This document shows, one piece after another, positions 13,559-16,968 of a stretch of 44,622 bases of DNA; position 1 is the first letter of the stretch, and each line of letters begins with the position of its first letter. The DNA lies in sequence record OZ035754.1; one strand, written 5' to 3'. The DNA comes from Kagunavirus BCH953P1. Both the position numbers and the translations under genes were made by a program. The notes below the pieces were generated by a model. It was not told where the DNA came from, made no database searches, and was given only the letters and a program-made list of their open reading frames with translations.

Positions 13559-13765
13559 TCACTTCTCGTTAACATTCGAGTTGCACGCCCAGATTAAAAT
13601 AAATACCCACGGCAGCAGAATCCAACCAAGAAACAGGTTGGCCATGAATATCGCTAACTTCGCTTTATGGTTACGGAAGTACGCAACCAGGAAAGGTGCG
13701 AAATAAGCGAGAAGTGCAAACAGAATTAAGGAAACCGGTAAACTTGACATTTTAAACCCCTTCAT
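13559..13765 (-). CDS. small membrane protein (two predicted TM helices)
   Basis: 68 aa hydrophobic ORF; first gene downstream of promoter P2. Confidence 0.5.
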   Translation of the reverse strand: MKGFKMSSLPVSLILFALLAYFAPFLVAYFRNHKAKLAIFMANLFLGWILLPWVFILIWACNSNVNEK

Positions 13766-13917: not shown

Positions 13918-14337
13918 ATGAAACTTTCTGATTTCTATTTCGAAGAGAAAGCACTGGTAGGCAAGAAGATGCCGATTCTGCTACCAAACGGCGAAGACTC
14001 CGGTGAGTGGCTTAATGTTGTAAGTCCGGATGCCGATGTCGCCGTTAAAGCGGGGCGTGCTTTCATTATCGCATACCGTCGCGGGCTGGCGCGTTTCGAA
14101 GAACTGGAAAAAGCTGCCAAAGAATCCGGCGACTATACTGAATATAACCTGGCGATTAATGAGCTAGCGGAAGACCTCAACCGGCAACTCGCGGCGGAAG
14201 TCGTAAACGGCTGGAGCTTCGACGACGAGCCTTTCTCTAAGGAAGCGTTTAACAAATTGCTCGACCAGTTTAAAGGGCTTGGAACCCAGGTAGCAGCGTT
14301 CCATAACGCTGAGCGCAAAGCATTACAGGAAAAGTAG
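13918..14337 (+). CDS. tail assembly chaperone (G-like)
   Basis: 139 aa immediately upstream of the tape measure gene; SD AAGGA. Confidence 0.55.
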   Translation: MKLSDFYFEEKALVGKKMPILLPNGEDSGEWLNVVSPDADVAVKAGRAFIIAYRRGLARFEELEKAAKESGDYTEYNLAINELAEDLNRQLAAEVVNGWSFDDEPFSKEAFNKLLDQFKGLGTQVAAFHNAERKALQEK

Positions 14338-14702
14338 ACGCGCTGTACAGGTTCGCCACCTACGAGTTCGTTGATAAGCATAAAATCAGAGAGTTTGATT
14401 CTATAGCTGACGGACACGAACAGGCGCTTATCGCGATGGGTGTAATCGATAAGAAAAAACGTGCAGCGCGACGGGGTGGGCCAGAATGCCCGCCCCTTTT
14501 TATATCCACCTTTGAGACGTACTGTGACATTAAGTTTACGCGACACGTGCGCGAGGACGCTGTAGTATTGTTTGCAAGAGAATCCGTTACGTGGCAAGAC
14601 CTGAAAGCCTATCTCGATGTTACGCAAAAACAGCTTAGCCTGTTCGAGATAGACATTATCATGGGCTTAGAAGCAATCTTTGAAGGTAGAAATCATGGCT
14701 GA
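14313..14702 (+). CDS. tail assembly chaperone -1 frame extension (T-like domain, expressed as a G-T fusion by programmed frameshift)
   Basis: The -1 frame is open from 14313 to 14702 and overlaps the last codons of the chaperone gene; A-AAG slippery context (GGAAAAG) at about 14328..14334; canonical position before tape measure. Confidence 0.5.
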   Translation, partial: AQSITGKVDALYRFATYEFVDKHKIREFDSIADGHEQALIAMGVIDKKKRAARRGGPECPPLFISTFETYCDIKFTRHVREDAVVLFARESVTWQDLKAYLDVTQKQLSLFEIDIIMGLEAIFEGRNHG

Positions 14703-16968
14703 TACCGCTAGCTTGATAGTACGAGTATCTTCGACCGGCGTCGATAAAACCACATCACAACTGAACGGGCTTACCAAAGCCGCAGGTGCCGCCGCGGCTG
14801 CCGTTGTCAGTCTGGAAACCGCTAAGCAGGTGTTCAGCGCGCTGGTGGACTCTCAGCGCAACTTCGATAAGCTGAACTCCGGCCTCATCACAATGACCGG
14901 TAGCGCTGAGAACGCGGCTAAGGCTTTCAGCGTCCTGCAACAGTTCGCAAAAGAAACCCCGTATGGTCTCAATCAGGCGGTAGAAGGTTTCACTAAGCTG
15001 GTTGCCCTAGGCCTGAACCCCAGCAAAGAGGCGTTAATCTCCTACGGCAATACCGCTGCCGCGATGGGTAAAGACCTTAATCAGATGATTGAGGCCGTAG
15101 CGGACGCCAGTACATTTGAGTTTGAACGACTAAAAGAGTTTGGCATCAAGTCGTCACAGCAGGCGGATACCGTTTCTTTCACGTTCCGCGGCGTAACAAC
15201 TACTGTCAAAAAGAACTCCGAAGAGATTCAGAAATACCTGCTAAACATCGGTAACACTGATTTCGCCGGGGCGATGGAGACGCGTTCGAAGACCTTAGAT
15301 GGTCAGTTATCCAGCCTGGCGGACTCTTTCGATGGCCTTGTTCTTGCGGTAGCGCAATCCGGTTTTGGCGATGCCGTAGGTGAGCAGGCCGCGATGGCAG
15401 AAGACGCAGTAACGGCGCTTACCGACGCCATCGCGTCTAATGAGATAGCTGCCACACTCCAGGACTGGGCGACGCTGTTCAATGAGTCGTTCAAGTTTAT
15501 TTCTGACGCCTTGAATGACCTGGCATACGACACCGAGGACAAATCCGCAGACATGTCTGACTCGCTGGGGACTATACCGGATGCTATCCGTGAGTGGTTG
15601 CCTGAGATTCAAAGAATAGCGAAGGATATGTATGTAGAGTTCCAGGCTATTGACATGCAAGCGGCGCTTCTGGCGCAGTCTATTAAAGCCGCCTTCACCC
15701 CAGGTGAAACGGCGGCGGGTACATTTGCCGCGGGTCAGGCCGCCGTTCAGTTCTTCAAAGACACTGAAAAGGCGAAAAACAAGGCTGAGGCGGACGGGAT
15801 AACCCAACGCTCGAAGCAGCGTAAGAAAGAAATTGAGGAACAGCGCAAGCAGTACGACGAGCGCAAGAAGCAAGAAATTGACTTAGCCAGCCTTGTTAAT
15901 AAAAAAGGTGGAACTGGCGGCACCGGTAACGCCGACGATAAAGCGGCAAAAGCAGCCGCTAAGAAAGCTGAGCAATTGCGAAATCAGGCGCAGGATTACC
16001 TCGACACTTTGGCCCGTCAGAACAACGACGAGTTAAAGGCTATTGACGCGCAGGAACAGCAGAAACTGGCTAAAGCAAAAGAGTTCTACAGCCAGGGTGC
16101 GTTGTCTCTGAAAGAATACGAACAAGCTAAAACAGCTATCGTCCTCGAAGCCGGACAAAAACGGCAAGATGAACTGGATAAACGCCAGAAAGAAGCCCTG
16201 GAAAAGCAGCAGAAAGGTGACGACTTCATGGCCCAGATTATGGGCCAGAACGCTACTGAGCTTGAGCTTCTCGACATCCAGGAACAGCAGAAACTGGCGG
16301 TAGCCGATAAGTACCGGGAGCAAGGGCTTATTAGCGAGAAGCAGTATCAGGCCGCGCTTAACGCCATCAACGAGCAATATGCCACCAAGCGCGCCGACGC
16401 AACGGCAACCGCCTTCGGTAACATGGCCTCAAACATCGGGTCTGCGTTGGGGGAGGCTTCCGGTGCGTATAAGGCATTCGCTATCGTACAGGCCACTATC
16501 GCCACGTACACCGCAGCTATTGAGGCGTACAAGTCAACGGCTGCTATCCCTGTTGTTGGCCCGTTCCTTGCCCCTGTAGCCGCTGCCGCTGCCGTTGGGG
16601 CGGGTATGGCGCAGGTTTCCGCTATCAGGTCTGCGCGTGAGCAGGGGGGCCAGTTATCCGCGGGGCAGGCTTCCACCATCGCCGAACGCGGTAAACCCGA
16701 AGTTATCATGCCCGCTGGCGCATCGCGTGTGCGCACCGCGCAGCAGATGAAAGAAATTATGGGGCAAAACGGGTCTTCTTCCGGACCATCTAATGTTACT
16801 ATCGTAAACAACACGAGTTCTCAAATCGGCAATGTATCCACCGAACAGGATGATGAGGGCCGTCTGCGTATCATCATAGAAGAGCAAGTTGCTGCATCTT
16901 TGCAGAACAGCAACAGTAAGATTAGCAAGGCCCGCAAGGCCACAAGAAATGCGCCGGGGTTTAAATAA
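14680..16968 (+). CDS. tail tape measure protein
   Basis: 762 aa, coiled-coil rich with internal repeats and hydrophobic C-terminal segment; follows chaperones. Confidence 0.85.
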   Translation: MKVEIMADTASLIVRVSSTGVDKTTSQLNGLTKAAGAAAAAVVSLETAKQVFSALVDSQRNFDKLNSGLITMTGSAENAAKAFSVLQQFAKETPYGLNQAVEGFTKLVALGLNPSKEALISYGNTAAAMGKDLNQMIEAVADASTFEFERLKEFGIKSSQQADTVSFTFRGVTTTVKKNSEEIQKYLLNIGNTDFAGAMETRSKTLDGQLSSLADSFDGLVLAVAQSGFGDAVGEQAAMAEDAVTALTDAIASNEIAATLQDWATLFNESFKFISDALNDLAYDTEDKSADMSDSLGTIPDAIREWLPEIQRIAKDMYVEFQAIDMQAALLAQSIKAAFTPGETAAGTFAAGQAAVQFFKDTEKAKNKAEADGITQRSKQRKKEIEEQRKQYDERKKQEIDLASLVNKKGGTGGTGNADDKAAKAAAKKAEQLRNQAQDYLDTLARQNNDELKAIDAQEQQKLAKAKEFYSQGALSLKEYEQAKTAIVLEAGQKRQDELDKRQKEALEKQQKGDDFMAQIMGQNATELELLDIQEQQKLAVADKYREQGLISEKQYQAALNAINEQYATKRADATATAFGNMASNIGSALGEASGAYKAFAIVQATIATYTAAIEAYKSTAAIPVVGPFLAPVAAAAAVGAGMAQVSAIRSAREQGGQLSAGQASTIAERGKPEVIMPAGASRVRTAQQMKEIMGQNGSSSGPSNVTIVNNTSSQIGNVSTEQDDEGRLRIIIEEQVAASLQNSNSKISKARKATRNAPGFK

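What the first reader, a model, noticed from the sequence alone, without database searches (positions are those of the whole stretch)
16020..16380. Internal sequence repeat in the tape measure gene
Two approximately 38-codon segments (..DAQEQQKLAKAKEFYSQGALSLKEYEQA.. and ..DIQEQQKLAVADKYREQGLISEKQYQAA..) are clearly related at both protein and DNA level. Such repeats are where tape-measure length, and hence tail length, changes by recombination.
Basis: seen in the sequence. Interest (0 to 1): 0.2.

Follow-up and report, generated by a model that had tools for sequence, protein, structure and literature searches.

The report
Old fixed duplication in tape measure
The tail-length "ruler" gene of this E. 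coli phage contains two adjacent, anciently duplicated 76-amino-acid helical units; the repeat is real but frozen at two copies in the sampled members of this phage subfamily, so it is an ordinary structural feature and not an active site of tail-length change.

Summary
The repeat is real and larger than reported. The tape measure protein (TMP, window 14695-16968, +) holds two directly adjacent 76-codon units (15961-16188 and 16189-16416). They give an ungapped 70-aa self-match scoring 122, against a shuffle maximum of 42 +/- 4.

The two copies are old: 36% aa and 46% nt identity, with third codon positions near random. Same-codon use (11) equals the codon-usage expectation (11.8).

The window is a Kagunavirus (Guernseyvirinae). 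All 13 diverse subfamily TMPs carry exactly two units, and no indel occurs between TMP aa 415 and 699. All length differences (742-779 aa) lie N-terminal. The 120 closest database clusters are 756-760 aa.

So the idea that length changes here is not supported for this lineage. It holds only at depth: distant TMPs with the same C-module show 1, 2 or 4-5 units, and one has an 85%-identical recent duplication.

Each unit is a helix-loop-helix whose core resembles the SHOCT domain. This has weak single-sequence support, but the family consensus reaches Pfam's cut-off and the reciprocal search retrieves true SHOCT proteins.

A mosaic recombination junction coincides with the unit 1/unit 2 boundary.

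Overall this is a new example of a known kind of TMP repeat, of low to moderate interest.

The parts
14695..16968 (+). Tail length tape measure protein gene (757 aa from ATG 14695; the ORF is open from TTG 14680)
   Evidence: phrog_1538 E=1.4e-185 over aa 6-756, and Pfam TMP_3 over aa 56-223. 99.9% identical to Kagunavirus BCH953P1. The ATG start follows the K1G annotation. Tail-module synteny is confirmed.
15961..16188 (+). Repeat unit 1 (76 codons; TMP aa 423-498 in 757-aa numbering)
   Evidence: Self-diagonal at offset 76 aa scoring 122 vs a null of 42 +/- 4. Unit HMM i-E=2.7e-41. Indel-free in 13 relatives.
16189..16416 (+). Repeat unit 2 (76 codons; TMP aa 499-574), directly abutting unit 1 and the C-module
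   Evidence: There is zero gap between the end of unit 2 and the start of the C-module in all Guernsey-like homologues.
16063..16137 (+). SHOCT-like helix-loop-helix core of unit 1 (unit positions 35-59, KLAKAKEFYSQGALSLKEYEQAKTA)
   Evidence: Pfam SHOCT E=9e-4, 19.3 bits (cut-off 27) for this unit. The family consensus scores 27.7 bits, E=2e-6. AF2 places a helix break at unit positions 45-49 with pLDDT ~90.
16291..16365 (+). SHOCT-like core of unit 2 (unit positions 35-59, KLAVADKYREQGLISEKQYQAALNA)
   Evidence: Weak SHOCT_2 match, E=0.064. 8 of 15 units from relatives match SHOCT at E<=1, best 1.9e-5. AF2 places a helix break at unit positions 45-49.
16051..16070 (+). 20-nt exact run CAGGAACAGCAGAAACTGGC (QEQQKLA), copy 1
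   Evidence: Not maintained in relatives.
16279..16298 (+). 20-nt exact run, copy 2
   Evidence: K1G and KpD1 have AAG here, which breaks the run.
16165..16200 (+). Mosaic (inter-phage recombination) junction at the unit 1/unit 2 boundary
   Evidence: Nt identity to L AB-2017, EcoPhCCP1, LM08P1 and LM02P1 steps from ~50-60% to ~90% here. Protein identity is 38-46% in unit 1 and 78-96% in unit 2.
16417..16965 (+). Conserved C-terminal module (TMP aa 575-757), including a hydrophobic segment at aa 613-646 (window 16531-16632)
   Evidence: 62-99% identical across the subfamily. Found after the unit(s) in distant TMPs. Kyte-Doolittle value >1.2 at aa 613-646.
13918..14702 (+). Tail assembly chaperone pair (G-like ORF 13918-14337; the -1 frame extension is open from 14313 to 14702)
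   Evidence: The 259-aa phrog_15027 profile is split over the two ORFs. K1G annotates a joined CDS.

Best explanation
The feature is an ancient tandem duplication of a 76-residue alpha-helical module inside the tape measure protein of a Kagunavirus, now fixed at two copies.

Each unit consists of a leading helix, a SHOCT-like helix-loop-helix core (K-L-x2-L/A-x2-F/Y-x3-G-L-I-S-x2-Q/E-Y-x2-A-x3-I) and a short trailing helix. The pair sits directly in front of the conserved hydrophobic C-terminal module of the TMP.

The 152 residues are part of the ruler. By inference, at ~0.15 nm per residue they account for about 23 nm, or 20% of the shaft. Their number and length are under strong constraint in the Guernseyvirinae: there is no copy-number change and not a single indel.

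The two copies diverged before the sampled genera split and evolve independently, with no concerted evolution. Their DNA is now too dissimilar to drive unequal homologous crossing-over.

Recombination does act on this region, but in register between different phages. The unit boundary is a module junction where TMP halves of different ancestry are joined without any change in length.

Shown: the repeat, its age, its fixed copy number, the indel-free zone, the junction, and the helix-loop-helix prediction. Inferred: the contribution to tail length and any specific role of the SHOCT-like core.
For: - Repeat statistics.
- Two units in 13 of 13 subfamily TMPs.
- Indel-free from aa 415 to 699, with all length variation N-terminal.
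- The 120 nearest clusters are 756-760 aa, and the full-length megablast hits have the same span as the query.
- Orthologous units are 53-54% identical between genomes, against 23% on average for paralogous units within a genome.
- Same-codon count is 11 against 11.8 expected.
- Junction at 16165-16200.
- AF2 predicts an all-helical chain with breaks at the conserved QG-(L/I)S loop of both units.
- SHOCT link: 8 of 15 units match. The consensus scores 27.7 and 27.5 bits against a cut-off of 27. The unit profile retrieves proteins with 6-8 true SHOCT domains, aligned to unit positions ~28-70.
- TMP identity and synteny.
- The figure of 0.15 nm per residue comes from the TP901-1 deletion series (PMC5099701).
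Against: - The ruler contribution is not measured. The one tail length found for a Kagunavirus (fBC-Eco01: 94 +/- 2 nm for a 779-aa TMP, PMC9825357) gives 0.12 nm per residue, so part of the TMP may not be extended.
- The sample of 13 plus 120 relatives could miss rare copy-number variants.
- The AF2 model is a monomer of moderate confidence (pLDDT 71, pTM 0.38), whereas the TMP is an oligomer inside the tube.
- Single units do not reach Pfam's SHOCT cut-off.
- The coincidence of the junction with the unit boundary rests on four genomes that may share one ancestral event.
Confidence: 0.78

Rival explanations
1. One reading: the repeat is an active substrate for unequal recombination that changes TMP length, and hence tail length, in this phage and its close relatives.
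For: - In-frame spacing of exactly 228 nt with a shared 20-nt exact run.
- Distant TMPs with the same C-module carry 1, 2 or 4-5 units.
- P0191 has two adjacent units 85% identical.
- Repeat gain and loss in TMPs is documented for other unit types (PMC3271669; PMC5099701).
Against: - No copy-number variant among 13 diverse and 120 close relatives or among the full-length phage records.
- No indel in the region at all.
- Only 46% nt identity, and the 20-nt run is broken in K1G and KpD1.
- Length variation in the subfamily maps elsewhere, to aa 41-414.
Confidence: 0.08
2. The units are kept at two copies because the SHOCT-like cores have a specific job beyond spacing. Possible jobs are docking the G/GT assembly chaperone, or lying on the host membrane surface next to the hydrophobic C-module when the TMP is ejected.
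For: - The motif is conserved in TMPs whose flanking coil is unalignable, and it always lies 0-36 aa (in most cases) upstream of the hydrophobic C-module.
- There are no indels, which is also a stated property of SHOCT (PMC3581485).
- SHOCT-like domains have been predicted to anchor proteins at the membrane (PMC11237479).
- Conserved aromatics at unit positions 13, 42 and 53 recall the aromatic TMP repeats proposed to contact the chaperone (PMC5099701).
Against: - There are no experimental data on SHOCT function. The original paper found no oligomerisation.
- The SHOCT similarity is borderline.
- Many TMPs, such as lambda gpH, lack the unit.
- Many homologues manage with a single unit.
Confidence: 0.12
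3. The similarity is a chance match between two low-complexity, Q/E/K/A-rich coiled-coil segments and not a true duplication.
For: The region is rich in Q, E, K and A. The word-index search with the segment found almost nothing.
Against: - The score is 19 SD above the shuffle maximum, with an exact 76-residue register over 70 residues.
- The same two-unit architecture, with conserved L36, Y/F53, A56, I60 and R68, is present in all relatives.
- The profile finds 157 proteins at E<=1e-3 in 1.84 billion.
Confidence: 0.02

Closest known systems
Internal repeat units of siphophage tape measure proteins (11-aa units of mycobacteriophage TMPs, Belcaid et al. 2011; 11/18-aa aromatic repeats of TP901-1 and the 40-aa repeat of phage p2, Mahony et al. 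2016)
   Same: Tandem, in-frame, alpha-helical repeats lie inside the ruler part of a TMP. Units have been gained and lost in the wider family (1 to 4-5 copies, and one recent duplication). Conserved aromatics are spaced by sums of 11 and 18 (29, 11, 36).
   Different: The unit is 76 aa, not 11, 18 or 40. There are only two copies, strongly diverged (36% aa). Copy number is invariant across the sampled members of the subfamily. The unit contains a recognisable helix-loop-helix motif instead of a simple periodic helix.
SHOCT domain (Pfam PF09851; Eberhardt et al. 2013) and SHOCT-like bi-helical domains (Ravi et al. 2024)
   Same: A two-helix motif of about 25-30 residues with a Gly in the loop, an acidic/amide residue followed by an aromatic at the start of helix 2, and no indels. 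The family consensus passes the Pfam cut-off. The unit profile retrieves true multi-SHOCT proteins.
   Different: It is internal, 183-259 aa from the C-terminus, not C-terminal. Single units score below the cut-off. The Gly is present in 20 of 26 units, and the Glu is mostly replaced by Gln. The motif is embedded in a longer 76-aa unit inside a virion protein. No TMP-SHOCT link was found in the literature searched.
Lambda gpH, the reference tape measure protein
   Same: Same gene position after a G/GT-type frameshifted chaperone pair, the same presumed ruler role, and a largely helical protein with a hydrophobic C-terminal part.
   Different: No detectable copy of the 76-aa unit, nor of the window's N- or C-modules, in gpH.

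Membership tests
Phage tail length tape measure protein | Sequence match to curated TMP families | tested here: met
   phrog_1538 E=1.4e-185 over the full length. Pfam TMP_3 scores 39 bits, just under its cut-off of 41, at E=9e-10.
Phage tail length tape measure protein | Gene lies between the frameshifted tail assembly chaperone pair and the distal/minor tail genes | tested here: met
   Chaperone ORFs at 13918-14337 and to 14702 (phrog_15027 split over both). Minor tail proteins and a J-like tail protein lie downstream. The same order is annotated in K1G.
Phage tail length tape measure protein | Protein length proportional to tail length (~0.15 nm per residue) | tested here: inconclusive
   Only one measurement was found: fBC-Eco01, 779 aa, tail 94 +/- 2 nm, which is 0.12 nm per residue. 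TP901-1 gives 0.15. No measurement exists for this phage.
Phage tail length tape measure protein | Mostly alpha-helical with hydrophobic segment(s) towards the C-terminus | tested here: met
   AF2 predicts aa 413-604 as all-helical. A hydrophobic segment lies at aa 613-646.
Copy-number-variable TMP tandem repeats (Belcaid / TP901-1 type) | Head-to-tail in-frame copies | tested here: met
   Units at 15961-16188 and 16189-16416 are contiguous.
Copy-number-variable TMP tandem repeats (Belcaid / TP901-1 type) | Period of 11 or 18 residues marked by Trp/Phe | tested here: not met
   The period is 76 residues. No significant short hydrophobic periodicity was found. Only three conserved aromatics per unit, spaced 29, 11 and 36.
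Copy-number-variable TMP tandem repeats (Belcaid / TP901-1 type) | Copy number differs between related phages | tested here: not met
   There are two units in 13 of 13 Guernseyvirinae TMPs, and no +/-76-aa variant among the 120 nearest clusters. Variation (1, 2, 4-5 units) appears only in distant homologues.
SHOCT domain (PF09851) | Score at or above Pfam's gathering cut-off (27 bits) | tested here: inconclusive
   Window unit 1 scores 19.3 bits, and unit 2 matches only SHOCT_2 at E=0.064. 8 of 15 units match at E<=1. The consensus of 26 units scores 27.7 bits, and the consensus of 97 TMP units scores 27.5 bits.
SHOCT domain (PF09851) | About 30 residues forming two helices joined by a short loop, without indels | tested here: met
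   AF2 places helix breaks at unit positions 45-49 in both units. There are no indels in 13 relatives.
SHOCT domain (PF09851) | Strongly conserved Gly and Glu | tested here: inconclusive
   Position 46 is Gly in 20 of 26 Guernsey units and 56 of 97 TMP units. Position 52 is Glu in 4 of 26 (Gln in 18 of 26) and in 44 of 97. The assignment of these columns to the SHOCT Gly and Glu rests on the reported profile coordinates, not on a residue-level alignment.
SHOCT domain (PF09851) | Located within ~50 residues of the C-terminus (89% of members) | tested here: not met
   The cores end 183 and 259 residues before the C-terminus (coordinates; criterion from PMC3581485).
SHOCT domain (PF09851) | Reciprocal retrieval of family members | tested here: met
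   The TMP-unit profile retrieved proteins with 6-8 SHOCT domains (Pfam E=1e-36 to 1e-51), aligned to unit positions ~28-70.

The most novel reading that the evidence does not exclude
The 76-aa unit may define a previously unrecognised, widespread TMP module whose core is a true SHOCT domain. It would act as a specific functional element placed just upstream of the membrane-inserting C-module, for example anchoring at the membrane surface or docking the chaperone during tail assembly or DNA ejection. That would give the functionally orphan SHOCT domain its first experimentally tractable context. It would also explain why copy number and length are frozen in Guernseyvirinae.
Probability: 0.15. 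Interest if true: 0.55.

Novelty: new member of a known kind. Interest (0 to 1): 0.25.

Why it matters
Internal repeats in tape measure proteins are often assumed to be the place where tail length evolves. This case shows a repeat that arose by duplication but has since been frozen. It has two copies and no indels across all sampled genera of the subfamily, while length differences accumulate elsewhere in the protein. That is a useful caution for reading TMP repeats.

Two by-products may be of some use. First, the unit boundary is a clean module junction for inter-phage exchange, which is relevant for engineering chimeric Kagunavirus or Jerseyvirus tails. Second, there is a borderline but reciprocal link between a TMP module and the uncharacterised SHOCT domain.

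None of this changes the basic understanding of tail length determination.

Tried and rejected
- Word-index homologue search with the 169-aa repeat segment gave only 4 hits and was uninformative.
- NCBIfam gave no hit.
- PDB sequence search returned only a designed helical bundle at E=0.03.
- Foldseek of the AF2 model against the PDB gave nothing below E=1.
- Hydrophobic periodicity (heptad or hendecad) in the units was not above the shuffle level, so the idea was dropped.
- The idea that unit 2 is the ancestral copy by sequence was rejected. Single units of distant TMPs score equally with the unit-1 and unit-2 models (19 of 39). Only the positional equivalence stands.
- The idea that the 20-nt exact run is a maintained recombination site was rejected. 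It is broken in K1G and KpD1, and overall same-codon use equals expectation. Taken alone, six identical codons have p~0.013.
- Lambda gpH as a homologue of the unit was rejected: no match.
- Matching 1-unit and 5-unit TMPs to cultured phages with measured tails failed. There is no close relative in the phage collection.

Full report
**Context.** The finding lies in a 762-codon ORF (14680-16968, +). It matches the PHROG tape-measure family phrog_1538 over its whole length (E=1.4e-185) and Pfam TMP_3 at aa 56-223. The gene is 99.9% identical to Kagunavirus BCH953P1 and about 91-93% identical to K1G, K1ind1-3 and many other Kagunavirus phages of E. coli (subfamily Guernseyvirinae). Relatives annotate the start at the ATG corresponding to window 14695, giving 757 aa. 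A frameshifted tail assembly chaperone pair lies upstream, and minor tail and J-like tail genes lie downstream.

**The observation.** The two quoted peptides are 76 codons apart. A scan of every self-diagonal of the protein gives one outstanding hit: offset 76 aa, ungapped over 70 residues (aa 428-497 vs 504-573 of the 762-aa ORF). Its BLOSUM62 score is 122. The maximum diagonal in 60 shuffles was 42 +/- 4, and the next real diagonal scores 43.
- Identity is 27/76 aa (36%) and 105/228 nt (46%), against 27 +/- 3% for other in-frame segments. By codon position it is 46, 55 and 37%.
- The only notable DNA match is a 20-nt exact run (16051 and 16279, encoding QEQQKLA) within a 41-nt 76% match.
- Among the 27 identical residues, 11 share the codon, against 11.8 expected from the codon usage of the tail genes.
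- The DNA resemblance is therefore what protein conservation alone would give. The six consecutive identical codons have p~0.013 taken in isolation, but the run is interrupted in K1G and KpD1.

**Copy number and length in relatives.** I extracted TMP genes from 12 annotated or unannotated relatives spanning Kagunavirus, Jerseyvirus, Cornellvirus and a Serratia phage. They are 742-779 aa and 18-93% identical in the N-domain.
- A unit HMM finds exactly two adjacent units in every one.
- In the 13-sequence alignment there is no gap column between window TMP aa 415 and 699. All length differences fall in aa 41-414.
- The distance from the end of unit 2 to the C-terminus is 182-183 aa throughout.
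- The 120 closest clusters in the 5.8-billion-protein collection are 756-760 aa.
- The full-length megablast hits have the same span as the query.
- No variant differing by one unit was seen.

**Age and mode of evolution.** Orthologous units are 53-54% identical on average between genomes. The two units within one genome average 23% (range 14-36%), and the window's 36% is the highest in the set. The duplication therefore predates the divergence of these genera, and there is no concerted evolution.

**Recombination does act here, but in register.** Identity to EcoPhCCP1 and L AB-2017 is 38-46% in unit 1, then 96% in unit 2 and 99% in the C-module. LM02P1 and LM08P1 show the same step. At nucleotide resolution the step lies at about 16165-16200, which is the unit 1/unit 2 boundary. 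Two deeply diverged N-terminal types occur within single genera. A further replaced patch at 15700-15790 relative to K1G explains why the megablast hits come in two pieces. The TMP is thus a mosaic whose modules are exchanged between phages without change of length.

**The wider family.** A profile of ten units was searched against 1.84 billion representative proteins and gave 157 hits at E<=1e-3. I recounted them locally with a 26-unit HMM and with HMMs of the window's N- and C-modules.
- Guernsey-like TMPs have two units abutting the C-module.
- 39 TMP homologues carrying the C-module (many also the N-module) show a single unit, followed in most by only 7-36 residues before the C-module, so they have no room for a second unit.
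- P0191 (1703 aa) has four full-length units plus one partial match.
- The single units occupy the position of unit 2, but by sequence they are equidistant from both units.
- In P0191 two adjacent 69-aa units are 85% identical, which is a recent duplication.
- So gain and loss of this unit has shaped TMP length in the larger family.
- Neither the 1-unit nor the 5-unit proteins have close cultured relatives, so tail lengths cannot be compared.
- Lambda gpH has no detectable unit.

**What the unit is.** AlphaFold2 on aa 413-604 with 17 homologues (mean pLDDT 71, about 90 over the unit-1 core) predicts continuous helices. They are broken at unit positions 45-49 (QGALS and QGLIS) in both units, and at positions 20-23 of unit 2.
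- Unit positions 35-59 match Pfam SHOCT positions 2-26 of 28. For window unit 1 this is weak (E=9e-4, 19.3 bits, cut-off 27).
- SHOCT is the only family hit recurrently, by 8 of 15 units with a best E of 1.9e-5.
- The consensus of 26 Guernsey units scores 27.7 bits and that of 97 TMP units scores 27.5 bits, so both reach the cut-off.
- Reciprocally, the TMP-unit profile retrieved non-TMP proteins with 3-10 matches to unit positions ~28-70 only. Ten of them were scanned; nine hold SHOCT domains above the cut-off, up to 6-8 stretches at E=1e-36 to 1e-51, and the tenth matches the SHOCT-like DUF1707.
- The published hallmarks of SHOCT are two amphipathic helices, a conserved Gly and Glu, and no indels (PMC3581485). 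They are partly met. Gly46 occurs in 20 of 26 units. Position 52 is mostly Gln in Guernsey units but Glu in 44 of 97 family-wide. The location is internal, not C-terminal.
- I found no paper linking SHOCT to tape measure proteins.
- SHOCT function is unknown. A membrane-anchoring role has been predicted for SHOCT-like domains (PMC11237479). This is suggestive, given the hydrophobic segment 39 residues downstream of unit 2, but it is untested.

**Mechanism.** The best-supported reading is that the two units are fixed helical modules of the ruler. At the 0.15 nm per residue measured in TP901-1 deletions, they would contribute about 23 nm of a predicted 114 nm. The one measured Kagunavirus tail (94 +/- 2 nm for a 779-aa TMP) is shorter than that rule predicts, so the extended-helix assumption is not verified here. 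The absence of any indel or copy-number change points to constraint on exact length, and possibly on the motif itself.

**Verdict.** The feature is a new example of a known kind of TMP repeat. The SHOCT-like core and the junction at the unit boundary are modest extras. Interest is low to moderate.

Noticed in passing
window 13918-14702 (+): G/GT-type tail assembly chaperone. The G-like ORF ends at the TAG at 14335-14337, and the -1 frame is open from 14313 to 14702. The 259-aa phrog_15027 profile is split across the two ORFs, and K1G annotates a joined CDS. The slippery site was not pinned down; only GAAAAG lies just before the stop.
   Followed up: partly
window 14680-14702: The mechanical ORF starts at TTG 14680, but relatives annotate ATG 14695 (MADTASL...). 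That start overlaps the end of the upstream chaperone frame by 8 nt, suggesting translational coupling.
   Followed up: partly
window 14695-15960 (TMP N-domain and middle region); loci L003, L004, L007: Two deeply diverged N-terminal types of the TMP (13-23% vs 47-93% aa identity to the window) occur within the same genus: Kagunavirus (window vs L AB-2017) and Jerseyvirus (VSe101 vs SETP3). This means the N-terminal half is exchanged as a module.
   Followed up: partly
window 15700-15790: A short patch in the charged middle region is only 32-48% identical to K1G and KpD1, while the flanks are above 90%. This explains why most megablast hits to the gene come in two pieces.
   Followed up: partly
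window units 15961-16416, unit positions 13, 42, 53: Aromatic residues are conserved at the same three positions of both units in nearly all relatives. Their spacings of 29, 11 and 36 are sums of 11 and 18, reminiscent of the 11/18-aa aromatic repeats described in other TMPs.
   Followed up: no
protein P0191 aa ~989-1125 (from the representative library): A 1703-aa TMP homologue with the same N- and C-modules carries four full-length copies and one partial copy of the unit. Two adjacent 69-aa copies are 85% identical, indicating a recent tandem duplication. Its source organism is unknown.
   Followed up: partly
proteins P0148, P0159, P0184: The TMP-unit profile also retrieved proteins combining an N-terminal calponin-homology domain with several SHOCT domains. 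They are probably eukaryotic; multi-SHOCT proteins are reported in Naegleria.
   Followed up: no
window 13559-13765 (-): A small membrane-protein ORF on the opposite strand lies just upstream of the tail genes. The syntenic gene is annotated as a superinfection immunity protein in K1G, EcoPhCCP1 and VSe101.
   Followed up: no
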